The notes: a model not told the origin generated them from the letters alone. Shown: positions 13,090-29,204, numbered from the stretch's first letter. The stretch: 64,000 nt of DNA from Deltaproteobacteria bacterium HGW-Deltaproteobacteria-14 (GCA_002841945.1 PHBI01000002.1:11972-75971), one strand, 5' to 3'. Translations and numbers: made by a program.

Positions 13090-13092
13090 TGC

Positions 13093-13449: not shown

Positions 13450-13491
13450 GCTCGCCGGCCGGGTGTTCCGGGGACGGGTGGAACCCCGCTG

Positions 13492-16400: not shown

Positions 16401-17103
16401 CAACGATACTCAGAGCGGCGCCATCGGTAGCCTTGTTCGTCGTGGAGACGACCAGAATGCGCTCGCCGGACCGCGCGGAGGCAGCCGCGACGAGCTCCCC
16501 GAGGCTGTGGGTCTTGCCGGTCCCGGGCGGACCCCAGAGCACGGTCCAGCGGTGCCCCCAAAGCGGCTCGAGCGCAGGCACTCCGAGACGCGATGCTGGA
16601 ACTGAGACAGCCGGGACCGTGCCAGCCGAGAGGCCGAGCGCCGCCCCGATGAGCCCCGCAGGTCCCCGTCCGGCCTGCTGATAGACCTCATGGAGGAACC
16701 GCGTGAACTCGAACGGCTTGACGATGAAGTCGCCGGGCGTCGGCGCGCCCGAACCGTCCTTGAGACCGATGAAGATGTCCCCAGCGTCGGCATCGATTTC
16801 ATAGACCGTCCCGCTCCATGCGTACCGGGACGCCTCGAAGGAGCCGGGACCGGCGATGTCATCGAAGTCCAAGGGGCGAAACGCGAAGCCCCCCTCCCAA
16901 CTCGAGTCGAGCTCGACGCGCCCGACGTGGACGCGGACGATGCTCTGGTCGGTCACGAGCGGGCGATCCACGCGGTGAGCGGCGATTCGAAGGCTCCGGC
17001 TACATACCCGATGTTCCGCGGCGACCGCGTCGCGTGCCTCGGCGAACCAAGTCGGACCAGCTTCGTGTCGGTGCGATGGTCTCCGGCTCGTCGACATCGC
17101 CAT
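13492..17103 (-). CDS. 1203-aa tandem SF1 helicase: Upf1/DNA2-like (AAA_11/AAA_12) core followed by UvrD-like core, with two C-terminal C2H2-like zinc fingers
   Basis: First core: GPPGTGKTH ... VIIDEAGLV ... VILVGDPRQLAPI. Second core: GVAGSGKTVV ... VFVDEGQDMG. C-terminus: CPICNAPMGTAQLARHIVASH and CPVCRFEVRADLYEKHLARH (C-x2-C-x11-H-x3/5-H). Confidence 0.8.
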   Translation of the reverse strand: MAMSTSRRPSHRHEAGPTWFAEARDAVAAEHRVCSRSLRIAAHRVDRPLVTDQSIVRVHVGRVELDSSWEGGFAFRPLDFDDIAGPGSFEASRYAWSGTVYEIDADAGDIFIGLKDGSGAPTPGDFIVKPFEFTRFLHEVYQQAGRGPAGLIGAALGLSAGTVPAVSVPASRLGVPALEPLWGHRWTVLWGPPGTGKTHSLGELVAAASARSGERILVVSTTNKATDGAALSIVGAMRRRSQKADLTRVLRIGAGADLTRYRAADATELLDGGETAIRAELNAKRRELDRVTRPEERAAIKREIEALRKQLREADLALFDPGHQVVIATAFKAVQILADAEQSPVMGGPPPFSTVIIDEAGLVSRAATAALALHAGTRVILVGDPRQLAPISRVARVEVPRRMRWLGESSLAHLTPTTLTSSTVMLTAQWRMAPQIRELVSNYQYDGRLEDAPPIPAVAAGADLDPLLKSQPRALWYVLDEEASSPAAFRAQRPERGGSWHRPMTIDVLRQVFDAHPKLARGPGLFVSPFVAQGREIRQWLANHPVARDHWRASTIHAQQGAEADYVIFDTVHASSTAWPTHEWMRLVNVGLSRAKQVVLLIASRDEMQQPFLASLVDHIAPRVLRGRGPRTRWEAVPAKVAHEPSAKVRASDPTTLGAQLDDRGSMLRLLSAEQERLCNMRMDGGPRLVRGVAGSGKTVVMASWVARTLEEKPRGALWIVYGNAALKGLLDGMVSDALRVRGLDPATKQVSYFHIKELLGLLMQAAGVYYRGDPFDYNTQAARYLTNVGRPKPLCDAVFVDEGQDMGPETLRLLHQLVKPVDSASNRRQAVIFFDNAQNIYGRGTPQWSDLGIDMRGRSTVMKESFRSTRPITEFALNLLYRLLPPREDPDHRELLERGLVVEGHAGKRPWWRVRFCHVDGPRPQVELFGSRDAELETLGQQIEKWIRNEGVRPRDIRIIANRLSHCGKIEATLTPVVKRAGAKIIAQASEQLTSSDDTIVVSTPHSFKGHDAEIVAVACADGFVHKAGGILATNLYVAMTRARSVLWVSGKGSDANTEGARLTRIIQDIDRCLLVAESDRPPDGDGAPLESIPSPKSTTSVPTPSALPARAPTVKAAAPAKSHAKKGRAPTPKRSVGPGCPICNAPMGTAQLARHIVASHPLDRSSSAGGFGRCPVCRFEVRADLYEKHLARHIRKLTSRP

Positions 17104-17231
17104 CGTGCGTCCTTTTCTTCGGCTCTTGGGGTGGTGCTCCCGAGTCAGTGCACAATGCAGGCCGGCACCTGCACCGTCGACATCGTCGAATACACGATTC
17201 GCAGCCCGTCCTCAAGTAGGGGCTCGCGGGT

Positions 17232-17453
17232 TCACAGCAACAGGGCGACGATGAAGCGGTCTTTTTCCGCGCTCGGGACCGTCAGCCAATACTCGTACCC
17301 GGAACCTCCTAACAACCCGTTGGGCGCGGAACTCAACTCCTGGCCGGACAGCGCCACCTCGCCTGACTCGCTAATCTCCAGGTCGACGTACACCGACATC
17401 GGACCTTCGAGACCTTCGAGACCAACCAAAATCGCCCCGTGTGACAATGGCAC
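17232..17453 (-). CDS. 73-aa ORF, paralogue (possibly truncated) of the 128-aa protein at 10599-10985; first ORF of the helicase cluster
   Basis: Shares the YxYWLxxPxAxK..hIVALLL motif. Lies 129 nt upstream of the tandem-helicase start. It is short, so it could be a remnant. Confidence 0.3.
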   Translation of the reverse strand: MPLSHGAILVGLEGLEGPMSVYVDLEISESGEVALSGQELSSAPNGLLGGSGYEYWLTVPSAEKDRFIVALLL

Positions 17454-18034
17454 TCTCCGGTGTCACGCGTCGCCACTTTCGAGGAGCACGCTCGTTCGTT
17501 TTTCTCTTTTTGCGCCGGGATGATGTCCTGTTGATGCCCCGCTGTCACGGGAAGCAGGGACCGGGATCGGTTGATCGACACGCTCATCATGGCCTCTCGA
17601 ATTGGAACAGCCTCCGCGCGAATTGGGCTGCTGGAGAGCGAGCACCGGTGGAGTGCGACCACCGCGGCGAATTCAGATGTTCAGTGCACGACTCGGCGAC
17701 ATGGGGGTGGTAGCAAGATCCGGAGGAGGGTCGTTCGGGCCCCCAGTCCTTCTCTTCGGCCCTGGAGTCCCCGTGCCCCCCAGCGCGCCCCTATGTGGGT
17801 CACGCGAGCCTTGCAGGACAACGCCCCGAAGCATTCGACCTCGTCCCGAACTTGGCGGGTCGCGCTCGGAACGGGGCTGTGCCATGCTGCCATGCAGCAT
17901 GATTCGACGCCGCCACAACTATGCGTCTCGGCCGAGGTTTGGCGTTCCGACCTCGTCAGGCCATCGGGTTGCCCCGCAGTCCGTTGACCGAGGCGTGATC
18001 CTCGTTAGGTGCTATCCTGCGGGAGTAGACGCTC
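17454..18034. promoter_or_regulatory. 581-bp divergent intergenic region (helicase cluster on minus, zorA on plus); relatively AT-richer; presumed divergent promoters
   Basis: No credible ORF. Local GC is lower (e.g. ttcgtttttctctttttgcg). Sits between two divergently oriented operons. Confidence 0.4.
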
Positions 18035-20731
18035 GTGAGTGAAAGCAACCCAAGCGAAGCCACCATCCCAACCGCGGCAGCGCTTCGCCAACCCAGCATG
18101 ACCGGCACAGCGGCCGCGATGATAATCATCATCGTGCTGGTCGGCGTGGTGACCTTCGCATCAGGTCATTCGCTCATCGCGTCGCTTGTTGACGCGATGT
18201 CGAGCCCCGTGACGTGGGTGGTCTTCGCACTCGTGGTTTCGCTCGCGCTGGTGGGCGGGCACCTGCGAGGCCGGGGCCACCTTGCCGCGAAAGGAGTCGT
18301 GACGACCGCGAGGAGGATCGCCCGGCAACACGAACCAGCGGACGCGGACAGAGGGATCCCTCCTATCAAGCTCGATTCATTCGAGAGTGAGATCACCGAG
18401 CCGTATCTCATCGGGGTCTGGAAGGAATTCCGACGGAGTCTCGTGGACCGCGATGGGCGCTACTTCAAGGTCATGGACGCGAGCCGCTTCTTCGAAGACG
18501 ACGGGCTCGCGAGCGCCATCAAAGGGAGCGTGTGGCGGGCCGAGCCCAGCTACTCCTTCATCCACGAGTTGCCGGGCTTCATGGTCGGCCTCGGAATGCT
18601 CGGGACCTTCATTGGTATCGCCGTTGGGCTCGGACAACTCCAAGGGGTTGCGCAGGACGGCCAAGGCTTAGCCGTCGAGGGAGTGCAGAAGATCGCGCAG
18701 CACAGCACAGCCATCGTCGACAAGATTCCAAGCGTGATCGCTGGACTCGCGTCGGCGTTTTGGACGAGCATAATCGGCCTCATCGGGGCATCCCTGATGA
18801 CGTGGTTCAACCACAAGTCGGATAGTGCCCTGGGCAGCGCAATGGCGCTCTTTCGCCTCGAGCTCGACCGGTGCATCCCGCGGTCGAGCCAAGAGTTCTT
18901 CCTACGTCAGCAGACCTCGGCTCTACGAGAGATCAAGGACCTCCACGAGCAGGCGAATGACTTTCTTGGCGAAATGACGAACGATCTCGCAGACGAGATC
19001 GCGCGCGGCACTGGTGAGGTCATCGTCGGGCAGCTCTCCCCGATCCTGCACGGCATCGAGCGGGCCGTCAGAGAACAGATCGAGAACGCGGCTGTGCGCT
19101 CCGAGGACATGCTCCTTGCGCTCGTCGAGGAGCTGAAGGACAAGTTCGTAGCCGGATTGGACAACAGCGTCACCAAGATGGCGGCCCAGAACGAGCAGAT
19201 GACGAGCGCGTTCTCAGCGGTGACGCGCGACCTCGAGACGCACGTCGCAGGTGCGGTCTCCACATTCAGAGAGGGGATCGAGGGCGCCGGCGAGCACATG
19301 AACAAGGTGTTCGGCGAGACCTCGGACGCGTTCGCGGCAAAGCTCGGAGACGCGTCGACGGCGGTCGCCGAGTCACTCGGGGACAGCTCCAAGGCTCTCG
19401 CCAGCACGCTTGGCGTGGCGTCGAGCTCGTTGGCGTCATCGCTGGGCGACACATCTACCGCGTTCGCGAAGACGCTCGGCGAGTCCTCGAACGCCGTTGC
19501 GAACACGCTCGGGACGGCGTCGAGCTCGCTCGCTTCCTCGCTCGGGGACACCTCCAGGGCCTTCGCCAACACGCTCGGCGAATCCTCGAGCGCCGTTGCG
19601 AGCTCACTCGGGACGGCGTCGAAAGCATTGGCATCCTCACTCGAGAGTACGTCGAGCGCCTTCTCCGACAAGCTCAGCGAGGCTTCCGCCAATGTCGCAA
19701 CGTCGCTCGCGAGCGCTGCGACGAGCATGGCAGAGACCCTCGATGGTACAGTTGCCCGCGTCCGCGATGGGGTCTCCGACCTCGGAAGCCAGATGACTGA
19801 CGCGCTCACCGAGGCGACGACGGCAATGCGTCGGGGAATCGAAGGCGCACTGACGCCCCTCGAAGCCACCCTGCATACGCTCTCCGACGTCGTTGGCGCG
19901 CTTGGCGAGCAAGCGAGGATCCACGTCGACCTCCTCGAGCGCCACCAAACCACGGCTACGACCATGGGCGAGGCCGCGGAGAGGATAGCGCCCGCCCTCG
20001 AGTCCATCGTCGGTAGCCACCGCGAGTTGGCGTCGACGGTCCGCTCCCTCGAGCTGTTGTTCGACGAGCTCAGGACCACGCGAGACGCGCTCGCGGTCGT
20101 ACCCGGGGAGATTCGCGCTGGCCTCGGCGCCGCGACCGCGGAGCTGGCTGGAGCCGCGAACTCGCTGGCACCTGTGGCGGCCCAACTCGAGCGCTGGGGC
20201 GCGACCGTAGGCGAGTCACTCGAGGCACTCGAGAAGCAGGCCCAACTCCAACGCGAACAGCTCGAACAGCAGCGCGCAGCGACGAGGGAGCTCGGAGTTG
20301 TCGTCACGTCGTTCACGCCTGCGCTGAAGCAGGTCATTGGCTTCACGCAACAGCTCGAGGAGGTCGTCACGAGTATGGACGACGGGCTGGCCGAGCTCGC
20401 CGCCACACGCGGGACTCTCGAGAAGACGAACCTCGCGATCACGACCGGCCTCCGAACAGCGAGCGCGAACCTCAACGCCACAGCCGCTGGCCTCGGCCCT
20501 CTGACGGTGCAGATGCAGCGTTGGGCTGAAGCCAGCGGGAAGTCCCTCGAGGTGTTCGGCGCTACCATGCATGCGCACCTGCGCGATGCGCTGTCCGCGT
20601 TCGATGGCGCGCTGAGCGAGTCGGTTCGAGGGTTGGCGGAGGCCGGGGAGGAACTCATCGGAGTCGCCGACCGGATCAGCTTGCGGGTCGAGAGCATCGA
20701 GCGTTCAAACCCGCCACCGCGAGCCGCATAG
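18035..20731 (+). CDS. zorA: ZorA (MotA/TolQ/ExbB-like proton-channel subunit with ~600-aa repetitive tail), type I Zorya
   Basis: N-terminal TM helices. MotA/ExbB channel signature LPGFMVGLGMLGTFIGIAVGL. Long C-terminal tail of 11-residue repeats (SLGDTSxAFAxTLGESSxAVA...). Followed by a MotB-like gene. Confidence 0.8.
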   Translation: MSESNPSEATIPTAAALRQPSMTGTAAAMIIIIVLVGVVTFASGHSLIASLVDAMSSPVTWVVFALVVSLALVGGHLRGRGHLAAKGVVTTARRIARQHEPADADRGIPPIKLDSFESEITEPYLIGVWKEFRRSLVDRDGRYFKVMDASRFFEDDGLASAIKGSVWRAEPSYSFIHELPGFMVGLGMLGTFIGIAVGLGQLQGVAQDGQGLAVEGVQKIAQHSTAIVDKIPSVIAGLASAFWTSIIGLIGASLMTWFNHKSDSALGSAMALFRLELDRCIPRSSQEFFLRQQTSALREIKDLHEQANDFLGEMTNDLADEIARGTGEVIVGQLSPILHGIERAVREQIENAAVRSEDMLLALVEELKDKFVAGLDNSVTKMAAQNEQMTSAFSAVTRDLETHVAGAVSTFREGIEGAGEHMNKVFGETSDAFAAKLGDASTAVAESLGDSSKALASTLGVASSSLASSLGDTSTAFAKTLGESSNAVANTLGTASSSLASSLGDTSRAFANTLGESSSAVASSLGTASKALASSLESTSSAFSDKLSEASANVATSLASAATSMAETLDGTVARVRDGVSDLGSQMTDALTEATTAMRRGIEGALTPLEATLHTLSDVVGALGEQARIHVDLLERHQTTATTMGEAAERIAPALESIVGSHRELASTVRSLELLFDELRTTRDALAVVPGEIRAGLGAATAELAGAANSLAPVAAQLERWGATVGESLEALEKQAQLQREQLEQQRAATRELGVVVTSFTPALKQVIGFTQQLEEVVTSMDDGLAELAATRGTLEKTNLAITTGLRTASANLNATAAGLGPLTVQMQRWAEASGKSLEVFGATMHAHLRDALSAFDGALSESVRGLAEAGEELIGVADRISLRVESIERSNPPPRAA

Positions 20732-20742
20732 CGAGGACGTGA

Positions 20743-21882
20743 ATGGGACGCCGGAGAGGTCAGCCCCTGTGGCAGAGCTACGCCGACCTGGCGATGGGGC
20801 TCATGGCGGTGTTCGTTCTGATTCTGGTCATTCTCCTGTGGGACCAGAACAGGCTCACGACCGACTTAGCTCAATCGAAGGAGCGGGCCGAGCAGGCACT
20901 CGAGGATGCGATGAAGCAACGGCAGCTCACGGAAGAGGCGCTTGAGTCCGTGACTCTCGAGAGGGCCGCGCTCGAGTCCGAGCGAGGGACCTTCGCCATT
21001 GAGCTGATGGAGCTGTTCGAAACGACGTACGACCTCGTACTCGCTCAGGATAACGCAGAGAACTGGCTCACTGCGGTCTTCGAGGAGGGCGACTGCCGGT
21101 TACGTATGACTGAGCGAGGTGAGCTGGTCATCGCGACGCCGGACGGCGGACGGGCTGCGGCCAGTCTGTACGAGTCGGGGCAGTTCGTCCTCAGCGTTGA
21201 GGGTCGTCAGGCGCTGCTCACGTGTCGGGACAATTTCCTGAAGCTCGCGCACTGTCTCACCCCCGAGGACAACGTCCCCGAGGCGGTGAGTGAGAGGCGC
21301 AAGCGGCTGTGCCCCGGTGTTGGGGTCCACAGCCTCGACATGGCTGTCCCGGTCTTGCGGGCGGGGATCGAGGCGCTCGTCCTGGAAGGAAACACCGACC
21401 AGATCCCGCTCGGAGGCGGTACCCCGAGCATCCGGGCCGGCGGCTACGGGGTGACTTACCCCACACCCGTGGCGCTGAGCTTCGTCGAGAACGCCTACCT
21501 TGGTGCGGAGCGGGCTCGGCAGGCGCTCGGGAACCTCATCGCGTTGGTCGCAGACGCGAATGAGGACCAGTGGGACGCGCTCGAGGTGATGATGAGCCGC
21601 GTCCGGATCGAGAGTCCGAGTTTCGGCCGCTTCCAGGCCGGTCCCCAAGAATGGCGGGAAGCAGGATGCGAGGGACCCGGGAGTTGCGCGGCGGCGCGGA
21701 ACCTGGCGCTCCGCGTACGGTGGCAGAAGCGTGCCCTCCGCCGGCCGTTCGAGCTCGTCCGTGAGCGGATCTGCGGGTTGCTCGTGACGCCCGACTCCTC
21801 GTTCGCAAAGGGACTCCTGAGCCAAGGACACACCCTCTTAGCCGAGCGCGAGCGCTTCGGCTGCCCGGAGACCGTCCCGTGA
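20743..21882 (+). CDS. zorB: ZorB (MotB-like stator subunit with single TM and periplasmic domain)
   Basis: N-terminal YADLAMGLMAVFVLILVILL has a conserved Asp at the MotB-like TM start. Gene sits 11 nt after zorA. Size 379 aa. Confidence 0.7.
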   Translation: MGRRRGQPLWQSYADLAMGLMAVFVLILVILLWDQNRLTTDLAQSKERAEQALEDAMKQRQLTEEALESVTLERAALESERGTFAIELMELFETTYDLVLAQDNAENWLTAVFEEGDCRLRMTERGELVIATPDGGRAAASLYESGQFVLSVEGRQALLTCRDNFLKLAHCLTPEDNVPEAVSERRKRLCPGVGVHSLDMAVPVLRAGIEALVLEGNTDQIPLGGGTPSIRAGGYGVTYPTPVALSFVENAYLGAERARQALGNLIALVADANEDQWDALEVMMSRVRIESPSFGRFQAGPQEWREAGCEGPGSCAAARNLALRVRWQKRALRRPFELVRERICGLLVTPDSSFAKGLLSQGHTLLAERERFGCPETVP

Positions 21883-23120
21883 CATCGTTGCCACCCATCC
21901 CGACGCTCGCGACGTTCTCGCTACCTCGGCCCGTCGGACTGCGGCGCCTGAACCAGCGTGTTTTCCGGGGAGCCGGCGTGAAACCGCGGCCGTCGCAGCT
22001 CGAGCAGGCGCGCAAGCTGCTTGCCAGCGCGAAAGCAGGCGCACAGGTCGAGGTGACGTCGTCGGTGCTGTGCCGATGTCTCGTGTACATCCTCGGGGAA
22101 CGCCCAGACGACACGGAGCGTGACCTCATCGGGAGGCTCGTTCTCGGTTCACCACACGCGCGAGCCCGAGAACTGCTCGCGCTGTGGGAGAACGTGCCAT
22201 CGCGGCGCGCCGCGATCGCTGTGGCGCTCTCGTCGGCGCTCGACGCTCGCTCACGCCCTTTTGTGATGCCCGACTGGTTGCCCCGCACCGAACCCGAACG
22301 GCGCAGAGCCCTGGTAGCCCCGCATGCGTTCTGCCTTCGAGGGCTCGAGCGTAATCTTGGTTCCATCGACACCGTCGGGGACAGACTCGGCGTCGTCCTG
22401 CACAGCAGACTCGGCCATGAGCTCCTATTGCACGCGTTGGTGCACGGCTCTGACCGGTTCTGGGGGGCCCTTGGGTCCCCACTTGAGCTGCGAGAATGGG
22501 CTCGCCCCCGCGACACCCGAACCCAAGCGGCCATTGCGGACCGCCAACTCGTCGCCATTGGGCGCGGCGTAACCGCACCATACAACCTCCCGGATGACGC
22601 CGAGACCAAGCACCTGACCGAATGGGTCTTCTCGACGCTCCGATCGCCGGACACTCACGCTGCGCGCTGGGACGGCGTGTCCGATCGGGGGCGTGAGGTC
22701 TTCGACTGGCTGCTCATCCGAGATGAGATTGTCAAGATTCTCGCGCTCTTTGAGCAGCAGGCGACGCAGTCGGACCGGGGGGAGTTCTGGAAGAAGCAAG
22801 CGCACCGGATCCGCGACGCACGCTTCGTGGACCTTGATGAGATGGCGGTCTGTCTGATCGTGATTGGGGAGACCCTGGTCGTCGAGTTCGGAGACTACGC
22901 CAACGCGGGGTACGTGTACGGAGTGCCCGCGCATTCACCGTCGGTGAGGCGGCCAGCGAACCTTCCAAATAGGGCGGGGAGCTTCAAGCAGCGTGGATAT
23001 CACCTGAAAATCGGAGCGGTCGTGTACCCGTTCAAGGACCGGATCATCCACGCGGGGGACTGGCAGACGCGGACCGGACAGGCCATCGCACAGTGGGCGG
23101 CAGGGTGGAGCCGGCGGTAG
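21879..23120 (+). CDS. zorC: ZorC candidate (413 aa), by position between zorB and zorD
   Basis: Start overlaps the zorB stop (ATGA). No motif recognised by eye. Assignment is by synteny of type I Zorya (zorABCD). Confidence 0.45.
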   Translation: MTSLPPIPTLATFSLPRPVGLRRLNQRVFRGAGVKPRPSQLEQARKLLASAKAGAQVEVTSSVLCRCLVYILGERPDDTERDLIGRLVLGSPHARARELLALWENVPSRRAAIAVALSSALDARSRPFVMPDWLPRTEPERRRALVAPHAFCLRGLERNLGSIDTVGDRLGVVLHSRLGHELLLHALVHGSDRFWGALGSPLELREWARPRDTRTQAAIADRQLVAIGRGVTAPYNLPDDAETKHLTEWVFSTLRSPDTHAARWDGVSDRGREVFDWLLIRDEIVKILALFEQQATQSDRGEFWKKQAHRIRDARFVDLDEMAVCLIVIGETLVVEFGDYANAGYVYGVPAHSPSVRRPANLPNRAGSFKQRGYHLKIGAVVYPFKDRIIHAGDWQTRTGQAIAQWAAGWSRR

Positions 23121-23133
23121 TTGGCTGCTGAAG

Positions 23134-26100
23134 GTGGAGGATTGCGTGAGTTCCTACGACCAGCGTGGCGTACACCTTGAACTTTCAGGGGTGCCGCTCT
23201 CCACAGTGGCAACCGCGGCGCTGCGTGACGAGGGCTTCATTCCGTGGCGCGTCGCTCTCTCCGTGCTCGACGAAGCGTGCGACCTGAACGAGGTTTCGGC
23301 CCGGCTTTCGGCGCTCGACGGGACGTTCTCCGAGGAAGACCGCTCCGCGCTCGAGGCGCCTCTGGCCCAGCTCATGCCTCCCACAGTGCCCATGACCCTG
23401 TCGGTAGCCGTTCGTGGGGTGGCAGGACGGACTCGCTACGCGCTCTTAGGCGAGTGGGTAGGCCGGGATGGCTACCGAGTTGACCCGCCACCCGAGCGGC
23501 TGTCACCGGGGATCGTCCGGTGGCGGGAGTCCGACTGGCGCATTACCGCATCACAACTGGAGGTACTCGACTCGCTCGACGGCGTCGAGGGGCTGGGAGC
23601 AAATCGAAGCACCGACCTGGCGCACACCGAGCGGGTGACGTCGGCGGTGCTCGGCGGCGATGCCTCGGTAACACTCGGGCCAGGCTTGCGGTCTAGTCGG
23701 TTCGTTCGCGTCGACGCTGTGGCACCGATGTTTGCCCAGGCCGCACCAGGACGATATCGCATGATGCCAACGGTCGAGGGCATCACAAACGAGACGCTGT
23801 GGGGACAACTGCGGCGGAGCCGCGGGGCCGAGCAGGTGGTGTCGTACCGAGACCCAGATGGCGTCGCAACGAGAGTCGTCTTCACGAGTCGCGCGCAGGC
23901 CGCGATTGCAGATGTCCGCCGCGAAGCCGCACAGATGCTCACGCCACGTCGGGTCGCGCAGATCATGACGCGGCCACAAGACATCCTCGGAGAGAACCTC
24001 GACCTCTCCGGCTTGTCGGAGCGGGTGACGGGCTTCGGCCCGGTGGTGCTCGACGTGAGCTTCGAACCAGGCGAACTCGGCGGACGGGACTGGTGGGACT
24101 TCGACACAACTCTCGTGCTCGACGATGGAGTCGACACGTCGCTCGCCCTCGATCTGAGGGACGAGAACGTCGTACGCACCCTGGAGACCGCTATCGCTGC
24201 GGCGGACGCCGACGGCTCGGCCTTTATCCCGTGCCCCAACCGGGACGCGCTCATGCCGCTGACTGCGCTCCTACGCCAGGCAGTGGCCACGGCACGCGAA
24301 CGCCTGGATGGACTCAAGCCGGAACGGGCGGAGCCACAAGGTTTTCAGATCATCTACAACATCGAGGAGCTCGAGTTCGAGCAGTCGGAGGTAACGCCGG
24401 GCGGAACACCTCCGAGGAAGCCGCGGGGGCTGGCGCCAGGGTTCGAACTCCACGACCACCAGTTGGTCGGATTCTCATGGTTGCATGCGCTCGCGACGGC
24501 GCCAGGGGGCTCGCGGGGGGCGTTGCTCGCCGACGACATGGGGCTCGGGAAGACGCTTCAGGTCCTCGCGCTGCTCTCGGACATGCTCGAAGGGGGGCGT
24601 CCCGGCCCCCATCTGGTCGTTGGACCAGTCGCCGTTCTGACCAACTGGATGAGGGAGGCACGGCGGTTCTTCCAGGAACGACTGCCGTGCCTGCAAATCC
24701 AAGGTCAGTTCCTGCGCGGTGCGTCGCCGGCGATGTCCGCATCCGCACTGCAAACCCAGCGCGTCGTCGTCGCGAGCTACGAGACCCTACGCGTCAACGA
24801 GATCGCGTTCGCGAAGGTGAAGTGGGACACCGTCATCCTGGACGAAGCCCAGAAGGCGAAGAACCCAACGACCCAGATCGCTCGCGTCTTGAGGACGCTT
24901 CAAGCGCGCTTCCGGCTCGCCGTGACGGGTACCCCTGTCGAGAACAGCCTACGAGACCTGTGGACTCTGTACGACTGGGCTGTACCCGGTCTGCTTGGGC
25001 CACTCCGACAATTCCGTACCCGCTTCATGAAACCACTCGGCGACGGCGCGGATAGCGTGCAGCGCCGGGTACTCGCCGACGAGCTAACGAGCACGATCAA
25101 GCCGGTCTTCATGCGACGGCTCAAAGAAGACGCGCTCCAGGGGCTACCACCGATCCACCGGCACGACCACGTCGTCCCGCTCTCGCATGAGCAGGAACTC
25201 ATGTACGCCGCCGTCATCCGGTCGGTAGTTGACGGACGCGAGAAGCCCCTGGGGAGCCTCCCGCGGTTGTTCGGGATGTGCGCGCATCCAGACCTGACTC
25301 CGTGGTTCGACGACCTCCGTGCGCTTGCGGCGAGTTCTTTCCCAAAGGGTCAGAAGCTCTTCGAGCTCCTGGATGACGTCGCGGCGCGCGGCGAAAAGGC
25401 GCTTGTCTTCGCGAACCGGAAGGCCGTCCAACGTTGGATCGCGGACGAAGTCGCTCGCCGATACCAGGTTGCACGGCCTTTCGTTATCAATGGTTGCCTC
25501 GATGACTCGGCCGAGCGGTTGAGGCTCGTCGACTTGTTCCAGAGCCGCCCGGGCTTCGGGTGCATCGTCTTGGCTCCGCGTGCGGCCGGCGTTGGCCTCA
25601 ACATCACGGCGGCAAACCACGTCATCCACTACATGCGCGAGTGGAACCCCGCGGTCGAGAACCAGGCGACGGACCGCTGCTACCGCATTGGGCAGGTCCG
25701 CCCAGTCCATGTGCACACGATAACCGCACGTTCGCCGCGCGGCGTGACGGTCGAGGAGCGACTCGCGGAGCTACTCGAGGCCAAGCGCCGGCTGTTCGCC
25801 GACTTCATCGTGCCGCTTGGCGATGTTGAGGTCGCCCAAAGCGACCTGGTCAACACGGAGGGCTGGGACGAGACGACGGTGGACGGCGACGCAGATCTGT
25901 TCACCGACGCGATGTGGCCAGTTTTACGCTCGGTGCTCGAAGCCGACGCATCGATGCGCGCTGAGCCGCCCTGCGAACACCTCGATGGAGGCCGCGTGAT
26001 CGGGCTCGACGACGGGACCCTGTTCGCAGGCACGAAGGTGGTCCGGCTCGTCGATGGGACCCGCAGGGACGCGGACCGCCTCGAAGCGGCGCTCCGCAAG

Positions 26101-26181
26101 AAGGGGGAGTCAGTGGAGGTGGTGGATACGCGACATCCGACACTCGCGGCGCGGGCGCTGGGGCGTGCGCTGACGTGCTGA
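23134..26181 (+). CDS. zorD: ZorD (SNF2-like helicase, 1015 aa, helicase core in C-terminal half)
   Basis: LADDMGLGKTLQVLAL, VILDEAQKAKN, LAVTGTPVENSL and helicase-C motifs. ~430-aa N-terminal extension. Last gene of the zor operon. Confidence 0.7.
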   Translation: MEDCVSSYDQRGVHLELSGVPLSTVATAALRDEGFIPWRVALSVLDEACDLNEVSARLSALDGTFSEEDRSALEAPLAQLMPPTVPMTLSVAVRGVAGRTRYALLGEWVGRDGYRVDPPPERLSPGIVRWRESDWRITASQLEVLDSLDGVEGLGANRSTDLAHTERVTSAVLGGDASVTLGPGLRSSRFVRVDAVAPMFAQAAPGRYRMMPTVEGITNETLWGQLRRSRGAEQVVSYRDPDGVATRVVFTSRAQAAIADVRREAAQMLTPRRVAQIMTRPQDILGENLDLSGLSERVTGFGPVVLDVSFEPGELGGRDWWDFDTTLVLDDGVDTSLALDLRDENVVRTLETAIAAADADGSAFIPCPNRDALMPLTALLRQAVATARERLDGLKPERAEPQGFQIIYNIEELEFEQSEVTPGGTPPRKPRGLAPGFELHDHQLVGFSWLHALATAPGGSRGALLADDMGLGKTLQVLALLSDMLEGGRPGPHLVVGPVAVLTNWMREARRFFQERLPCLQIQGQFLRGASPAMSASALQTQRVVVASYETLRVNEIAFAKVKWDTVILDEAQKAKNPTTQIARVLRTLQARFRLAVTGTPVENSLRDLWTLYDWAVPGLLGPLRQFRTRFMKPLGDGADSVQRRVLADELTSTIKPVFMRRLKEDALQGLPPIHRHDHVVPLSHEQELMYAAVIRSVVDGREKPLGSLPRLFGMCAHPDLTPWFDDLRALAASSFPKGQKLFELLDDVAARGEKALVFANRKAVQRWIADEVARRYQVARPFVINGCLDDSAERLRLVDLFQSRPGFGCIVLAPRAAGVGLNITAANHVIHYMREWNPAVENQATDRCYRIGQVRPVHVHTITARSPRGVTVEERLAELLEAKRRLFADFIVPLGDVEVAQSDLVNTEGWDETTVDGDADLFTDAMWPVLRSVLEADASMRAEPPCEHLDGGRVIGLDDGTLFAGTKVVRLVDGTRRDADRLEAALRKKGESVEVVDTRHPTLAARALGRALTC

Positions 26182-26184
26182 CTG

Positions 26185-26210
26185 CGCCTTGCTTGAATGT
26201 GCAAGGGCGC
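26185..26210 (+). terminator. GC hairpin 4 nt after the zorD stop (gcgccttgc-ttgaatgt-gcaagggcgc)
   Basis: Inverted repeat read from the sequence. Lies in the convergent intergenic region 26182-26399. Confidence 0.3.
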
Positions 26211-26340
26211 CCACCCCTGCCACGCCTCGCATGGCGTCTGGGCCGATAACGGATCGGACGAGGACGGGCAATTTCCGCGGTGGTTCGGGCGGCCGCAGCG
26301 GTGTCGCATCTGTAGGCAGCGCCTACCTGACGGCCCGGCA

Positions 26341-26367
26341 GCCCCGCCCTCGCGAATGGAGCGGGGC
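26341..26367 (-). terminator. GC hairpin (gccccgc - 13 nt loop - gcggggc) 33 nt downstream of the GmrSD-like gene stop
   Basis: Inverted repeat read from the sequence. Confidence 0.25.
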
Positions 26368-26399
26368 TGTCGTGCATCGTCCTCGTCCTCGTCCTTGCC

Positions 26400-28352
26400 T
26401 CACGTGTTGGGGTTCGCGGCCACGGTTCCGTCGACGCGGGGTGGGCGGGGCCAGAGAGCCAGCGCCTCCTCGAAGAGTCGGCGGCCACGGGTCCGAATCG
26501 CTGCCTCGTCCCAGGTCTCGGCGTCCTGGAACCAGGTGTTGATGCGAATGAGGCTTTGCTGGGCGATCTCGGGCCGCTTGGTGGCGTAGGGGCCGTTGCT
26601 CACCGACGAGTTGAGGGCCTGGGTAAGAAGTGTCAGGTTTCCGAACGTGTGGATGACGCGGTTTCGCTGCTCGATCGCCGACTCGTGCCCGTCGACGACC
26701 TCGACCTCAGCCGGCGCGGGCCACGCGGTCTCCCACCTGACCGGCATGACGTGCTCGACCGAGAGTGGGCCAATGTACTGGATGTTCTCCTGCTTCACGC
26801 CGTGGAGCTGTCGGTTCAGCGCTTGGAGGATGAGCGCGACGCGGCTGCTCTGCACTTCGTTGTAGATGGGTCGATCCAGCCAATGGCGCTCAAAGAGGGC
26901 GTCATCCGGCCAGACCATCGCGCTGGAGTGGCCTTCTGCGAGGTAGTCGCTCACGAGGCCGCGGTCGATCTTGTCCGCGGCGTGCAGGCGTCGGAGCAGG
27001 CCGACAAAGACCTTCACGTAGCTCTTGGTGGGGAGGTTGCACACGAAACGGCGTACGAGATACGACTCCAGGTCGCAGAAGATGCCGGGCAGCGCGTCGG
27101 GATCGACACGATCGCCGGCGCTGACCATGAGGAAGAGGAGAATCGGGTACACGCTGCTGATGTCGAGCCCCTTGAGGCGTCGTGCGAACGCGGCCCACGG
27201 GAAATCGTCCTTGGGCTCCACCAGGTTTGCGAACACGTCGCTGTGGGTGCGGATGAACAGGAGCGCATCCTCCGCGTCGCGCTCTTCGGTCCCCTCCCAC
27301 CAGTCTCGGAACGCTCGGTACAGTCGGCCGACGCTGATCTCGTCGTCCATCTGCGACTGGAGATAGTGGTAGATGAAGATGTCCAGCATGGGCTGCTTCG
27401 CACCACCCAGGCGGACACGGCGCTTCCAGAAACGTTCCTCGGCTTTGCTCCCAGGCGTGGTCACTGGGCGCTCGTCGTACTCGCGCCAGAAGGTGTTGTA
27501 GAGTTCCGTCTGGTCCTTGCCTTGGGCCGTCGCTCGCATGAACGCGAAGTTACGGATGAGGTCTGATGGGAGCAGCGGCTCTCCACGCGCGTTCAGCGAC
27601 TCGAAGATCACCTGCGGGTCATCATCGTTCTGGAGCTCGATCTGTACCAGCAGGACATGCCGCCGGAGCGCGTTGTAGAGGGCCTGGGCGCGAGCCGCCA
27701 TCATCGCGTCGATGCCGTCCTCGACGTCGGTAAAGAACCCGTCCATCACGTCGTGGAAGTAGAGATACGCCTCGACAAGCGCGGGCCGCGGATCGGGTTG
27801 CCGTGCGTACTTGCGTCGTTTGAGCGGGAACGCATCCATCGCGGCAGCTGGGGAGCCGGCCGTCATCAGCTTCTCGAAGACGGTGCGATCGGTGTTCGTC
27901 GGCCAGACCTTGAAGACCTCGTGGGCGCCTCCGACGACTCCCTCATTGCGGGTCAGCCGAGCGAGGTCGTTGACGATCGCCTTGAGCGGATCCTGGCCTT
28001 GGTCTTCCGGCCTGGGGGCGTTCGCCAGACAATCGCGGAAGGCCGCCAGCACGATCTGCAAGGTCGTGAGGCGCTGCTGGCCATCGATGACCTCGGCGGC
28101 GTCGATGTGTGAGCCGAACGTCGCGAGCTGCCGGGTGACGATGGCGCCGAGGAAGTGGTTCTGCACGACGCCGTTCTTCTTGCCGGAGCGGCCCTCGTGG
28201 TCGAGGACCGCTCGGGCCCGCTCCACGATGTCGTTCCAGAGCGGCTGCCACTGCTTGTCCTTGGACCACACGTAGGGTCGTTGGAACAACGGCACGCAGT
28301 ACTGGCGCTCCTTGCGGAAGATGTCGAAGATGGCCGTCTTGCTCGTCTCCAT
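26400..28352 (-). CDS. GmrSD/BrxU-like type IV (modification-dependent) restriction enzyme, DUF262 (ParB-like NTPase) + DUF1524 (His-Me finger)
   Basis: N-terminus FDIFRKERQYCVPLFQRPYVW (DUF262 signature). C-terminus ...SVEHVMPVRW... (DUF1524 HNH-like). 650 aa. Confidence 0.8.
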   Translation of the reverse strand: METSKTAIFDIFRKERQYCVPLFQRPYVWSKDKQWQPLWNDIVERARAVLDHEGRSGKKNGVVQNHFLGAIVTRQLATFGSHIDAAEVIDGQQRLTTLQIVLAAFRDCLANAPRPEDQGQDPLKAIVNDLARLTRNEGVVGGAHEVFKVWPTNTDRTVFEKLMTAGSPAAAMDAFPLKRRKYARQPDPRPALVEAYLYFHDVMDGFFTDVEDGIDAMMAARAQALYNALRRHVLLVQIELQNDDDPQVIFESLNARGEPLLPSDLIRNFAFMRATAQGKDQTELYNTFWREYDERPVTTPGSKAEERFWKRRVRLGGAKQPMLDIFIYHYLQSQMDDEISVGRLYRAFRDWWEGTEERDAEDALLFIRTHSDVFANLVEPKDDFPWAAFARRLKGLDISSVYPILLFLMVSAGDRVDPDALPGIFCDLESYLVRRFVCNLPTKSYVKVFVGLLRRLHAADKIDRGLVSDYLAEGHSSAMVWPDDALFERHWLDRPIYNEVQSSRVALILQALNRQLHGVKQENIQYIGPLSVEHVMPVRWETAWPAPAEVEVVDGHESAIEQRNRVIHTFGNLTLLTQALNSSVSNGPYATKRPEIAQQSLIRINTWFQDAETWDEAAIRTRGRRLFEEALALWPRPPRVDGTVAANPNT

Positions 28353-29204
28353 CGTGCCTCCGTGTGCAAGGCACGACAGCTACTATCGCCCGCCGCGACT
28401 GTCCAGCCGACGGGAGCGGTGCGCGTCGTGACGCAGGTGCTGTTGCGCACCGCGGCGACTTGCTGGGCTGCGTCTCTGGCGCCGCTGAGCCTGGGGAGCG
28501 TCAACTCTGGACACGTTCCCTTCGCAGGCGTCCGGTTCAGAGGACGCCTTCTTCAGGTGCCCGGCGACGTGGCAACTGCATGCCTCTTCATCGACTACTC
28601 CCGTGCAGTTGGCGCGGGCCCCGCTGACGATGGTGACCGACGCGCAGCTGCGCTGGCTCGCCAGCGGCTACCCGGTCGAGTTCGTCGGTGCCGGCACCCC
28701 CCACCATCGACCAACCCGGTCGTCACCGGCTTCGACTCGCCGCCCAAGACGGCCCCAGGGCACGCGTGACACGCTGGTTCGCGGTGCCAGTGTGCACGGT
28801 GGTTGCAGTCCACCGGCGTGCACCACGGCCGTCAGCGGCCTTCTCGGCGATGTACTCGCGGAGCGCAGCGACGATGTCCCCGTGACGGTGTCGGTCATCC
28901 GAGATGCGGGTCGAGCCTCCGCCCTACAGAGCGTAGGGCCTTCACTTCGCGACGCGGCTTGCGCGCCGGCGGCGCCACGACCGTCTCCAGCGTCTACGAC
29001 CCCGCGAGCCTCGAGCGCGTTCGGCGACCGCGCCACCCCGGACCCGGTCATGGACCACGAGCGCAGCGACCCAATCCGGGTACCAATTTTGTACCAATCC
29101 CCCACAAAACCACTCGAAAACCAGCCACAGGCCGCGACAAGCCAGGATGCCATATGTGAACGATTCCAGTAATCTACAACACACGGCAACACCTGACAAC
29201 AGGA

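What the first reader, a model, noticed from the sequence alone, without database searches (positions are those of the whole stretch)
18035..26181. Complete type I Zorya system (zorABCD) in a high-GC genome
The ZorA-like gene has the MotA/ExbB/TolQ channel signature (LPGFMVGLGMLGTFIGIAVGL) and a very long repetitive tail. ZorB has a MotB-like TM with a conserved Asp. An 413-aa ORF follows, then an SNF2 helicase with an N-terminal extension. Gene order and tight spacing (11 nt, ATGA overlap, 13 nt) match zorABCD (Zorya; Doron et al. 2018).

The block is flanked by divergent and convergent intergenic regions with hairpins, and looks slightly lower in GC than its flanks, consistent with horizontal acquisition. 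The ZorC candidate is short (413 aa vs ~560 in E. coli) and its assignment rests on synteny only.
Basis: partly seen in the sequence, partly recalled or inferred. Interest (0 to 1): 0.6.

Follow-up and report, generated by a model that had tools for sequence, protein, structure and literature searches.

The report
Divergent type I Zorya with stalked ZorB
The four genes are a complete but very divergent type I Zorya anti-phage operon (zorABCD), probably from a Myxococcota bacterium. It differs from the studied E. coli system in having its cell-wall anchor on a long rigid stalk and in lacking the DNA-binding end of ZorC.

Summary

- **ZorA:** PADLOC ZorA1, E = 1.4e-25.
- **ZorD:** PADLOC ZorD1, E = 4.7e-149; E. 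coli ZorD 8qy7, E = 2.6e-87; DrmD only 1.9e-36.
- **ZorB and ZorC:** single-sequence matches are barely detectable. Family profiles and AlphaFold2 models place them. The top PDB fold hits are ZorB (8vvi, 8vvn) and EcZorC (8r68).

The system belongs to a distinct clade; the only taxon clue is one relative's contig, labelled Myxococcota. All nine contexts examined keep the A-B-C-D order. Three features differ from canonical Zorya I:

- **Stalked ZorB:** about 80 helical residues lie between the membrane helix and an enlarged, cysteine-rich OmpA-like domain. Stalk length varies among relatives in whole heptads. EcZorB has no linker, and the published sensing model depends on that.
- **Core-only ZorC:** it lacks the C-terminal globular domain that EcZorC needs.
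- **Other differences:** ZorD has an extra ~110-aa C-terminal domain. The ZorA tail is ~640 aa, with hendecad repeats and a 99-bp tandem duplication.

All four proteins score below NCBIfam's curated cut-offs. The block lies in a ~45-kb defence island. I rate it a new variant of a known kind, of moderate interest.

The parts
17104..18034 (.). Divergent upstream intergenic region (931 bp). The promoter is presumed to lie here but is not identified.
   Evidence: It lies between the - strand helicase ORF (ends 17103) and zorA. There is no convincing sigma-70 match upstream of zorA. GGGAG lies 10 nt before GTG 18035.
18035..20731 (+). zorA: MotA/ExbB-like channel subunit (898 aa) with a cytoplasmic helical tail of about 640 aa.
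   Evidence: Sequence matches: PADLOC ZorA1 1.4e-25; NCBIfam antiphage_ZorA_1 2.6e-20, below its cut-off; PDB 8vvn_C, Shewanella ZorA, 5e-4. Hydrophobic segments lie at aa 24-42, 59-77, 181-199 and 234-252.
18569..18631 (+). ZorA channel signature LPGFMVGLGMLGTFIGIAVGL (aa 179-199).
   Evidence: It aligns with vPGFLTALGVIGTFMGLQLGL of Shewanella ZorA 8vvn_C. Position.
19310..19771 (+). ZorA tail segment made of about 13 units of 11 residues (hendecads, LGxxSxAxAxx), aa 426-579.
   Evidence: Printed in 11-residue register. Hydrophobic periodicity is 3.66 residues, which fits the right-handed supercoil described for the EcZorA tail (PMC11946911).
19417..19680 (+). 99-bp (33-aa, three-hendecad) tandem duplication inside zorA.
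   Evidence: TRF: period 99, 2.1-2.2 copies, 77-83% matches. ZorA in relatives is 513-811 aa, against 898 here.
20743..21882 (+). zorB: MotB-like stator subunit (379 aa).
   Evidence: PADLOC ZorB hits cover only aa 6-95 (2.9e-7). The family profile hits ZorB 8vvn_B (1.9e-5), 8qyd_F (6.6e-4) and 8vvi_A (7.2e-4). The AF2 model has pLDDT 90. The top Foldseek PDB hits are ZorB 8vvi_A and 8vvn_B, followed by MotB and OmpA-like domains.
20776..20844 (+). ZorB TM helix (aa 12-34) with the ion-coupling Asp15 (codon 20785-20787).
   Evidence: Hydropathy. Asp is present in 41 of 45 family members. It aligns with the Asp of fADL/yADL in ZorB 8vvn_B and 8qyd_F.
20845..21084 (+). ZorB periplasmic helical stalk (aa 35-114), predicted to be a coiled coil.
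   Evidence: The AF2 helix runs continuously from aa 10 to 114, with block-mean pLDDT 92-97 from aa 21 (75 over aa 11-20). The Asp15-to-Q102 distance in the family is 45, 52, 59, 66, 73, 80, 87 or 94 residues, with 38 of 41 values equal to 3 mod 7. One heptad position is 93% hydrophobic. EcZorB has no linker (PMC11946911).
21085..21879 (+). ZorB enlarged, Cys-rich OmpA-like peptidoglycan-binding domain (aa 115-379).
   Evidence: Fold matches to MotB, OmpA-like, YfiB and Pal domains. Invariant T218/D219 within the EGNTD motif (215-219) and invariant E256, R257, A258, R259. Eight Cys residues. No Pfam OmpA hit even at E<=10.
21879..23120 (+). zorC: EH-signature protein, core domain only (413 aa).
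   Evidence: PADLOC ZorC1 1.5e-4 for the single sequence. Family evidence. AF2 pLDDT is 92.5. Foldseek top hit is 8r68 EcZorC (E 3e-3, prob 1.00); the next hit has E 0.2.
22773..23063 (+). ZorC EH-signature region: R300 and W304, E336 (VVEFG...), H391 and W395.
   Evidence: Invariant or nearly invariant columns. E336 aligns with EcZorC Glu400, and R300/W304 with Arg335/Trp339 (residues named in PMC11946911).
23134..26181 (+). zorD: SNF2 helicase/nuclease effector (1015 aa, or 1011 aa from GTG 23146).
   Evidence: PADLOC ZorD1 4.7e-149; model PDLC00631 covers aa 81-907, so it includes the N-terminal domain. PDB 8qy7 EcZorD 2.6e-87. Pfam SNF2-rel_dom plus Helicase_C.
24532..25695 (+). ZorD SNF2 motor motifs: Walker A DDMGLGKT (aa 467-474), the equivalent of Glu651 (E509), the DEAQ box (aa 570-573), TGTPVEN, and QATDRCYRIGQ.
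   Evidence: Positions. Alignment to EcZorD. The DEAQ box and Glu651 are required for EcZorD nuclease activity (PMC11946911).
25849..26178 (+). ZorD extra C-terminal domain (aa ~906-1015) of unknown fold, with the motif EPPCEHLDGGRVIGLD.
   Evidence: It lies beyond the end of the EcZorD alignment. It is conserved in the closest relative L037: the BLASTP alignment that includes it (window aa 860-994) is 42% identical, and EPPxEHLDGGRVxGxD is shared. It is absent from the 916-aa ZorD of L041. No Pfam or PDB hit.
26182..26399 (.). Convergent downstream intergenic region with an inverted repeat at 26333-26375.
   Evidence: No T-tract terminator was found.

Best explanation
The block is a complete, intact type I Zorya anti-phage operon (zorABCD). 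It belongs to a divergent clade that is probably Myxococcota-associated.

**Inferred mechanism (by homology with E. coli ZorI, PMC11946911)**
1. ZorA5B2 forms a proton-driven 5:2 inner-membrane motor.
2. ZorB (Asp15 in its TM helix) anchors to peptidoglycan through an OmpA-like domain when a phage perturbs the envelope.
3. ZorA then rotates, and its long pentameric cytoplasmic tail (~640 aa, about 90 nm by scaling from EcZorA) relays the signal.
4. ZorC (the EH-signature protein) and ZorD (an auto-inhibited SNF2 motor/nuclease) are recruited and destroy the incoming phage DNA locally.

**Shown here:** homology of all four proteins; conservation of the key residues; conserved four-gene synteny; and three architectural differences.
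- **ZorB stalk:** the peptidoglycan-binding domain sits on a helical stalk of about 80 residues. The stalk length changes in whole heptads among relatives.
- **ZorC:** it is core-only.
- **ZorD:** it has an extra C-terminal domain.

**Inferred, not shown:** anti-phage activity; the 5:2 stoichiometry; that the stalk is a dimeric coiled coil which sets how far the anchor reaches towards the wall; and that DNA binding by ZorC works without the C-terminal domain.
For: **Homology of the four proteins**
- PADLOC hits: ZorA1 1.4e-25, ZorB 2.9e-7, ZorC1 1.5e-4, ZorD1 4.7e-149.
- PDB sequence hits: EcZorD 8qy7 2.6e-87 and Shewanella ZorA 8vvn_C.
- ZorB family profile: hits 8vvn_B, 8qyd_F and 8vvi_A.
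- ZorC family profile: hits 8r68 at 3e-5. All 41 members hit PADLOC ZorC1 and 30 of 41 hit Pfam EH_Signature.
- AF2 models: pLDDT 90 and 92.5. Their top PDB fold hits are ZorB and ZorC.

**Conserved residues**
- ZorB D15, T218/D219 and R257/R259.
- ZorC R300, W304, E336, H391 and W395.
- ZorD Walker A, DEAQ box and the Glu651 equivalent.

**Synteny and architecture**
- The order ZorA, long ZorB, EH protein, SNF2 is kept in all nine contexts.
- Stalk heptad quantisation and a hydrophobic stripe.
- Asp-to-C-terminus length in canonical ZorB is 211-230 aa (n=21). In this family it is 306-410 aa (n=41), and the ranges do not overlap.
- The block sits in a defence island with GmrSD, a type I R-M system, helicases and a DrmD-like gene.
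Against: - No functional data exist for this operon or for any member of its clade.
- Single-sequence evidence for ZorB covers only the N-terminus and is marginal for ZorC. All four proteins fall below NCBIfam's curated cut-offs: ZorA 72 bits against 190, ZorB 19 against 400, ZorC no hit, ZorD 345 against 1500.
- In E. coli, the ZorC C-terminal domain is essential for defence and for DNA binding. It is absent here.
- The published sensing model relies on a linker-less ZorB that cannot normally reach the wall. A stalk of roughly 10-12 nm does not obviously fit that model.
- The ZorD helicase core scores almost as well against NCBIfam's SCO1167/SCO6262 helicase model (6.5e-102) as against its ZorD model (8.8e-103).
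- The structures are predicted monomers. No ZorA5B2 complex was modelled.
Confidence: 0.85

Rival explanations
1. The operon is a decaying or non-functional Zorya remnant. ZorC has lost its essential C-terminal domain and ZorB has diverged beyond function.
For: - The EcZorC C-terminal domain is required for defence and for DNA binding.
- The window's ZorC ends 78 aa after the EH glutamate, whereas proteobacterial ZorC have 139-232 aa after it.
- One relative (L035) has a ZorD split into four pieces, and another (L036) has fragmented genes.
Against: - All four ORFs are intact and the catalytic residues are conserved.
- Core-only ZorC is the majority form in the family, about 32 of 43 full-length representatives. 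It also occurs in Rhodothermales Zorya loci.
- The long ZorB forms a conserved family of 48 clusters with invariant Cys, T218/D219 and E256-R259 motif residues.
- Stalk indels that preserve the heptad register imply purifying selection.
Confidence: 0.07
2. It is a MotAB/ExbBD/TolQR-type stator serving motility, gliding, secretion or envelope integrity, and merely sits next to an unrelated SNF2 gene.
For: - ZorA and ZorB are homologues of MotA and MotB. The predicted ZorB fold also matches MotB periplasmic domains.
- Myxobacteria use Tol/Exb-like motors (AglRQS) for gliding. This point rests on established knowledge and was not tested here.
Against: - The best matches are ZorA and ZorB models and structures, not MotA or MotB.
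- A 640-aa coiled-coil tail is a ZorA hallmark.
- Linkage to an EH-signature protein and a ZorD-type SNF2 is obligate in all nine contexts.
- No flagellar, Tol-Pal, TonB or gliding genes are nearby.
- The block sits in a defence island.
Confidence: 0.03
3. The SNF2 gene is DISARM DrmD (or Dpd DpdE), and the block is part of a DISARM- or Dpd-like system.
For: - ZorD also hits DpdE (1.7e-82) and DrmD (1.9e-36) models.
- A DrmD-like gene is present elsewhere in the window at 6970-10221.
Against: - ZorD1 models score far better (4.7e-149) and cover the ZorD-specific N-terminal domain from aa 81.
- EcZorD is the best PDB hit.
- No DrmA, DrmB, DrmC, methylase or Dpd genes are adjacent.
- The DrmD-like gene is on the opposite strand, 8 kb away, in its own three-gene unit.
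Confidence: 0.02

Closest known systems
[quoted passage not shown]
   Same: - Same four genes in the same order.
- ZorA has a MotA-like channel and a long tail with right-handed coiled-coil periodicity.
- ZorB has a TM Asp and an OmpA-like, disulfide-containing peptidoglycan-binding domain.
- ZorC has the EH-signature core (R/W, E, H/W network).
- ZorD has an N-terminal domain plus an SNF2 motor with the DEAQ box and the Glu651 equivalent.
   Different: - ZorB is 379 aa against 246 aa. It has a helical stalk of about 80 residues where EcZorB is 'fused without a linker', plus an enlarged domain with 8 Cys.
- ZorC is 413 aa against 560 aa and lacks the linker and the C-terminal globular domain.
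- ZorD has a shorter N-terminal domain (SNF2 starts near aa 430, against about 570) and an extra ~110-aa C-terminal domain.
- The ZorA tail is about 640 aa against about 506 aa, and ZorA has an extra N-terminal hydrophobic segment.
- Sequence identity is low: ZorB and ZorC are barely detectable with single sequences.
Unnamed metagenomic clade of long-ZorB Zorya I loci (L037 'Myxococcota_PHBI01' bin, L039, L035, L041-L044)
   Same: - Same architecture and gene order.
- Identities to L037/L039: ZorB 62-63%, ZorD 47-50%, ZorC 37-41%, ZorA 27-32%.
- L037 shares the ZorD C-terminal domain.
   Different: - The window has the longest ZorA seen (898 aa against 513-811) and the second-longest stalk class (87; range 45-94).
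- Some relatives carry C-terminal extensions on ZorC that look winged-helix-like or zinc-ribbon-like by eye.
- Some relatives lack the ZorD C-terminal domain.
Rhodothermales/Rubricoccaceae type I Zorya loci (L021, L027)
   Same: ZorC ends 77 aa after the EH glutamate, so it is core-only as here. Gene order is ZorA-B-C-D.
   Different: ZorB has the canonical length of 251 aa, with no stalk.
Flagellar stator MotAB
   Same: A 5:2-type ion-driven stator family. MotB has a TM Asp and an OmpA-like peptidoglycan-binding domain that reaches the wall through a spacer.
   Different: - The MotB spacer is a flexible linker with a plug, not a heptad-quantised helix.
- MotA has no long tail.
- MotAB has no EH or SNF2 partner genes.
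DISARM DrmD / Dpd DpdE SNF2 helicases
   Same: A defence-associated SNF2 helicase core.
   Different: The ZorD-specific N-terminal domain matches ZorD models, and the partner genes are zorABC rather than drm or dpd genes.

Membership tests
Type I Zorya (zorABCD) | ZorA: a MotA/ExbB-like membrane channel subunit with a long C-terminal helical tail. | tested here: met
   PADLOC ZorA1 1.4e-25 and PDB 8vvn_C. The TM segments are followed by a tail of about 640 aa with 3.66-3.7-residue periodicity.
Type I Zorya (zorABCD) | ZorB: a MotB-like single TM helix with a conserved Asp. | tested here: met
   Asp15 lies in YADLAMGLM. It aligns with the ADL of ZorB 8vvn_B and 8qyd_F and is conserved in 41 of 45 relatives.
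Type I Zorya (zorABCD) | ZorB: a periplasmic OmpA-like peptidoglycan-binding domain. | tested here: met
   There is no Pfam OmpA hit. However, the AF2 model matches ZorB, MotB and OmpA-like folds, and T218/D219 (EGNTD motif) and E256-R259 are invariant. Binding itself was not tested.
Type I Zorya (zorABCD) | ZorB peptidoglycan-binding domain fused to the TM helix without a linker (a feature of EcZorB that underlies the published sensing model). | tested here: not met
   A helix of about 80 residues separates the TM helix from the globular domain. Asp-to-C-terminus length is 364 aa, against 211-230 aa in 21 canonical ZorB.
Type I Zorya (zorABCD) | ZorC: the EH-signature core domain. | tested here: met
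   Foldseek top hit is 8r68. E336 and H391 are conserved.
Type I Zorya (zorABCD) | ZorC: a C-terminal globular domain on a long linker (essential in EcZorI). | tested here: not met
   The protein ends 78 aa after the EH glutamate, and the AF2 model ends with the core helix 395-411. This is also the majority state in its family.
Type I Zorya (zorABCD) | ZorD: an SNF2 helicase with the ZorD-type N-terminal domain and a DEAQ box. | tested here: met
   PADLOC ZorD1 4.7e-149, with coverage from aa 81. EcZorD 2.6e-87. DEAQ at aa 570-573.
Type I Zorya (zorABCD) | Mrr-like/PD-(D/E)xK nuclease domain in ZorD (as in the PADLOC description). | tested here: not met
   No Pfam or PDB hit for aa 890-1015 at E<=10. 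EcZorD nuclease activity maps to the SNF2 half and depends on the DEAQ box, so this domain is not required for membership.
Type I Zorya (zorABCD) | Co-directional, tightly linked A-B-C-D gene order. | tested here: met
   Gaps of 11 nt, -4 nt and 13 (or 25) nt. The same order is seen in nine contexts.
Type I Zorya (zorABCD) | Scores above the curated family cut-offs used for automatic annotation. | tested here: not met
   NCBIfam: ZorA 72 bits against 190, ZorB 19 against 400, ZorC no hit, ZorD 345 against 1500. PADLOC and DefenseFinder system calling could not be run.
Type I Zorya (zorABCD) | Protection against phage that requires all four genes. | not testable with these tools
   Needs cloning and phage challenge.
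DISARM | DrmD SNF2 together with DrmA, DrmB, DrmC and a methylase. | tested here: not met
   DrmD models score only 1.9e-36 against ZorD. No drmABC or methylase lies next to the block.
Flagellar, Tol-Pal or Ton stator sets | A MotA/TolQ/ExbB-like protein next to MotB/TolR/ExbD with flagellar, TolA-Pal or TonB partners, and no long tail. | tested here: not met
   No such partners lie in the neighbourhood scanned, about 1-45 kb. The ZorA-type tail is present.

The most novel reading that the evidence does not exclude
In this clade, the ZorB wall-binding domain sits on a rigid dimeric coiled-coil stalk. Evolution adjusts the stalk length in whole heptads, over a range of about 5-13 nm. The stalk would act as a periplasmic ruler that sets how close the peptidoglycan must come before the Zorya motor engages.

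This would be a natural length series for testing, or challenging, the published 'ZorB is too short to reach the wall until a phage perturbs the envelope' model. The same systems run with a ZorC that lacks the DNA-binding C-terminal domain. That implies effector recruitment and DNA engagement can be organised differently, possibly through the extra ZorD C-terminal domain.
Probability: 0.3. Interest if true: 0.7.

Novelty: new variant of a known kind. Interest (0 to 1): 0.45.

Why it matters
Zorya is one of the most widespread anti-phage systems. How it senses infection is still a hypothesis: that phage-induced narrowing of the gap between inner membrane and peptidoglycan lets a linker-less ZorB grab the wall.

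A natural clade could turn that hypothesis into a direct experiment. In it, the ZorB anchor is held on a stalk that varies by exact heptads, over about seven length steps among 41 relatives. Shortening or lengthening the stalk and then measuring basal activation and defence would test the idea.

The clade also shows that the ZorC C-terminal domain, essential in E. coli, is dispensable in nature. Curated annotation models (NCBIfam) miss all four proteins, so Zorya abundance in Myxococcota-like lineages is probably underestimated.

If none of this holds, the locus is simply one more Zorya I in a defence island.

Tried and rejected
**Searches that led nowhere**
- Searching GTDB genome contigs with the ZorD protein found no relative.
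- A back-translated EFGxTGNACY motif scan worked, but it mostly returned canonical proteobacterial Zorya I loci (33 stretches of DNA, loci L002-L034).
- The word-indexed homologue search with ZorC found only itself. The exhaustive representative search was needed.
- The ZorD C-terminal domain gave no PDB hit, no Pfam hit and no homologues in the word-indexed search.
- tblastn of ZorB against 72,556 plasmids found no match.
- Cluster look-up gave no names or taxonomy.
- A TD-motif measure for canonical ZorB failed because most canonical ZorB lack that motif. It was replaced by the Asp-to-C-terminus length.

**Idea tested and rejected**
I tested whether the missing ZorC C-terminal domain had moved to the ZorD C-terminus.
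- There is no sequence similarity to the C-terminal extensions of long ZorC relatives.
- The apparent short-ZorC/long-ZorD complementarity breaks in L043 (431/949 aa) and L044 (459/921 aa).
- The idea remains only a weak lead.

**Readings rejected:** flagellar/Tol/Ton stator, DISARM/Dpd, and a decayed remnant (see the rival explanations).

Full report
**1. The observation**

All are on the + strand and have no internal stops.

- The A-B gap is 11 nt, with a GAGGA ribosome-binding site before ATG 20743.
- B and C overlap by 4 nt, but as GTGA, not ATGA.
- The C-D gap is 13 nt for GTG 23134. GTG 23146, preceded by GGTGGAGG and chosen by the JGI gene caller, is the more likely start.
- The quoted channel signature is at ZorA aa 179-199.
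- The block is flanked divergently by a 1203-aa helicase gene and convergently by a GmrSD gene.
- Only the downstream spacer has a clear inverted repeat, at 26333-26375. No consensus terminators were found.
- GC of the block is 0.655, against 0.674 and 0.688 in the flanking island and 0.734 in 45-64 kb. GC3 is 0.77-0.81, against 0.92-0.98 for genes in 45-64 kb. This fits horizontal acquisition of the block, and of the island as a whole.

The window is part of a 101,897-bp JGI metagenome contig.

**2. What the four proteins are**

*ZorA.* It hits fifteen PADLOC ZorA1, ZorA2 and ZorA3 models at E<=1e-7, the best being ZorA1 at 1.4e-25. It also hits NCBIfam antiphage_ZorA_1 (2.6e-20) and the solved Shewanella type I ZorA 8vvn_C.

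*ZorD.* It hits PADLOC ZorD1 at 4.7e-149, and one ZorD model covers aa 81-907, so the match includes the N-terminal domain. E. coli ZorD 8qy7 is the best PDB sequence match (2.6e-87). DrmD models reach only 1.9e-36. The Walker A motif, the DEAQ box (aa 570-573), the residue equivalent to EcZorD Glu651, and motifs III and VI are all present. In E. coli, the DEAQ box and Glu651 are what the nuclease activity depends on (PMC11946911). No separate Mrr/PD-(D/E)xK domain was detected.

*ZorC.* As a single sequence it is marginal: PADLOC ZorC1 gives 1.5e-4 over about 22 residues, with no Pfam, NCBIfam or PDB hit. The word-indexed search found only the protein itself.
- The exhaustive search of 1.84 billion representatives found 58 clusters, mostly 400-430 aa.
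- A profile of 41 of them hits EcZorC (8r68) at 3e-5, aligning VIEFGtTGNAcYvY with VEFSGTGNAMYAY.
- All 41 hit PADLOC ZorC1, and 30 hit Pfam EH_Signature.
- The AlphaFold2 model (pLDDT 92.5) has 8r68 as its only credible PDB fold match. That match has E 3e-3, probability 1.00 and TM 0.42-0.44 over the whole chain; the next hit has E 0.2.
- Invariant or nearly invariant R300, W304, E336, H391 and W395 correspond to the EcZorC electrostatic network. That network is Arg335, Trp339, Glu400, His443 and Trp458. The His equivalence is inferred; the others are aligned by HMMER.

*ZorB.* As a single sequence it matches only over aa 6-95. It belongs to a family of 48 clusters of 323-439 aa, none with a Pfam domain.
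- The family profile hits the solved ZorB proteins 8vvn_B (1.9e-5), 8qyd_F and 8vvi_A.
- The AlphaFold2 model (pLDDT 90) has ZorB type II (8vvi_A, 1e-4) and type I (8vvn_B, 7e-4) as its best PDB fold matches. MotB periplasmic domains, OmpA-like domains, YfiB and Pal follow.
- Asp15 in the TM helix is conserved, T218/D219 (EGNTD motif) and E256-R259 are invariant, and conserved Cys residues are present. These are the marks of a divergent, disulfide-bonded OmpA-like peptidoglycan-binding domain.

**3. Synteny and host**

All nine genomic contexts recovered for long-ZorB proteins show the same order. That order is a MotA_ExbB/ZorA-like_t1 protein, long ZorB, an EH-signature protein and an SNF2 helicase.

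Identities to the closest loci are ZorB 62-63%, ZorD 47-50%, ZorC 37-41% and ZorA 27-32%. One of the two closest contigs is labelled as a Myxococcota (PHBI01) bin. The window's 73% GC backbone, with an ECF sigma factor gene next to a Ser/Thr kinase gene, is compatible with that assignment. The taxonomy is nevertheless inferred, not shown.

**4. How it differs from canonical type I Zorya**

[quoted passage not shown] They argue that this short reach, against an inner membrane-to-peptidoglycan distance of about 90 Å, is why ZorAB is normally inactive.

Here the model has one continuous helix from aa 10 to 114, which is the TM helix plus about 80 residues.
- Among relatives, the distance from the TM Asp to the conserved Q102 takes the values 45, 52, 59, 66, 73, 80, 87 and 94. 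Of 41 values, 38 equal 3 mod 7, and the window is at 87.
- One heptad position is 93% hydrophobic (85% in the variable part), against 19-56% elsewhere.
- Eight length classes separated by exact heptads imply at least seven independent indels, all multiples of seven. That is roughly 1e-6 by chance (my estimate).
- This is the signature of a coiled coil whose register must be kept. A parallel coiled coil is natural for the ZorB dimer.
- Twenty-one canonical proteobacterial ZorB have 211-230 residues from the Asp to the C-terminus. The long family has 306-410, and the window 364, so the ranges do not overlap.

*(b) ZorC.* EcZorC has a core, a long linker and a C-terminal globular domain. Deleting that domain abolishes defence and DNA binding.
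- The window's ZorC ends 78 residues after the EH glutamate.
- In the other proteobacterial loci recovered, 139-232 residues follow the motif (one outlier, L028, has 343). The two Rhodothermales loci have 77, like the window.
- About 32 of 43 full-length family representatives are core-only. The rest carry C-terminal extensions that look winged-helix-like or zinc-ribbon-like by eye.

*(c) ZorD.* It carries about 110 extra C-terminal residues, with the motif EPPCEHLDGGRVIGLD. This segment is shared with the closest relative, where the alignment that includes it is 42% identical. It is absent from others, and nothing recognisable matches it.

*(d) ZorA.* The tail is about 640 aa.
- EcZorA has a tail of about 506 aa spanning about 70 nm. 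By proportion, this tail would be about 90 nm.
- Its periodicity is 3.66-3.7 residues, which fits the right-handed supercoil of EcZorA.
- It contains about 13 hendecad units and a 99-bp (three-hendecad) tandem duplication.
- This is a plausible way for the tail to lengthen without losing register. ZorA in relatives is 513-811 aa.

**5. Mechanism**

By homology with EcZorI, the most likely mechanism has four steps.
1. A ZorA5B2 proton-driven motor is anchored to peptidoglycan by ZorB.
2. ZorA and its tail rotate.
3. ZorC and ZorD are recruited.
4. The auto-inhibited SNF2 nuclease degrades the incoming phage DNA.

*Shown here:* homology, motif conservation, synteny and domain architecture.

*Inferred:* stoichiometry, activity, and every dynamic step.

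The stalk raises a real question for the sensing model. About 10-12 nm of helix would bridge an E. coli-like gap. That leaves three possibilities. The host's gap may be wider and the stalk tuned to stay just short of the wall (a ruler). The anchor may be constitutive and activation gated elsewhere. Or the stalk may be bent or sequestered in the resting state. I cannot distinguish these possibilities.

**6. Rivals**

- *A decayed remnant* is unlikely. The ORFs are intact, the catalytic residues are conserved, and the 'defects' are the conserved state of a whole clade.
- *A motility, Tol or Ton stator* is excluded by the best matches, the ZorA tail, the obligate EH and SNF2 partners, and the context.
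- *DISARM or Dpd* is excluded by the scores and the missing partner genes. The DrmD-like gene at 6970-10221 belongs to a separate unit.

**7. Novelty and score**

This is a member of the Zorya I kind, but an architectural variant: stalked ZorB, core-only ZorC and an extended ZorD. Neither of the two Zorya structure papers I consulted describes it (PMC11946911; for PMC11890865 only the abstract and outline). A Zorya/Myxococcota text search returned one unrelated paper. All four proteins fall below NCBIfam's curated cut-offs.

I rate it a new variant of a known kind, with interest 0.45. The locus itself is an ordinary defence-island Zorya. The heptad-quantised stalk, however, gives a direct handle on the open question of how Zorya senses infection.

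**8. Limits**

- There is no functional test.
- The structure predictions are monomers.
- Taxonomy rests on one contig label.

Noticed in passing
window 344-10221 (- strand): A three-gene unit. It starts with a full-length DrmD-like SNF2 helicase (6970-10221; PADLOC DrmD 1e-184). A 1788-aa protein (1594-6960) and a 417-aa protein (344-1597) follow. Neither has any Pfam (E<=1), PADLOC, NCBIfam or PDB-sequence hit (the 417-aa protein was not searched against PDB). No DrmA, DrmB, DrmC or methylase is present, so it is not canonical DISARM. It may be an undescribed SNF2-associated defence system.
   Followed up: partly
window 11005-17103 (- strand): Two helicase genes lie upstream of zorA. One is a 694-aa UvrD/GajB-like protein (PADLOC NERD+UvrD 3e-32, GajB 5e-29) with no GajA seen. 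The other is a 1203-aa protein with an SF1 AAA_11/AAA_12 module (MkoA-like, 1.5e-40), a second UvrD-like module and a C-terminal zinc-finger-like motif.
   Followed up: partly
window 26400-28352 (- strand): A GmrSD-family type IV (modification-dependent) restriction enzyme, convergent with zorD (Pfam GmrSD_N and GmrSD_C; PADLOC mREase_IV 1.6e-77).
   Followed up: partly
window ~29360-31253 (+ strand): A HicA toxin gene (called by JGI at locus L001 17587-17799, with a small upstream partner gene) is followed by a 392-aa Fic/Fic_N protein (30075-31253). The long - strand ORFs listed over this region (28668-29801 and 29961-31310) are probably spurious high-GC shadow ORFs.
   Followed up: partly
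window 31455-37067 (- strand): A complete type I restriction-modification system: hsdS (31455-33104), hsdM (33101-34798) and hsdR (34737-37067, with EcoEI_R_C).
   Followed up: partly
window 38623-44709 (- strand): A 2028-aa protein combining DUF4011, an SF1 helicase (AAA_11/AAA_12), REase_MTES_1575 and DUF3320. This is a helicase-nuclease fusion typical of defence islands.
   Followed up: no
window ~45000: A compositional boundary. Positions 1-45 kb have GC 0.676, with several genes at GC3 of about 0.8. Positions 45-64 kb have GC 0.734, with GC3 of 0.92-0.98. The 45-64 kb part carries housekeeping-type genes, including an ECF sigma factor, a Ser/Thr kinase, a GMC oxidoreductase and an aquaporin. 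The whole left 45 kb looks like an acquired defence island. No tRNA gene and no Rfam family were found in the window; integrases were not searched for.
   Followed up: partly
window 18104-18160 (ZorA aa 24-42): ZorA has an extra N-terminal hydrophobic segment, ahead of the segment that aligns with the first TM helix of EcZorA. It could be an additional TM helix or a signal-peptide-like sequence. The N-terminal region aligns with the closest relative's ZorA from aa 17-18.
   Followed up: no
L035 12276-15324 and L036 8071-16501: In two related loci, ZorD (and in L036 also ZorA and ZorC) is split into several ORFs. These are either pseudogenised Zorya copies or assembly frameshifts.
   Followed up: no
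L044 676-3621: One related locus has a second SNF2 helicase gene (981 aa) directly upstream of zorA, in addition to zorD.
   Followed up: no
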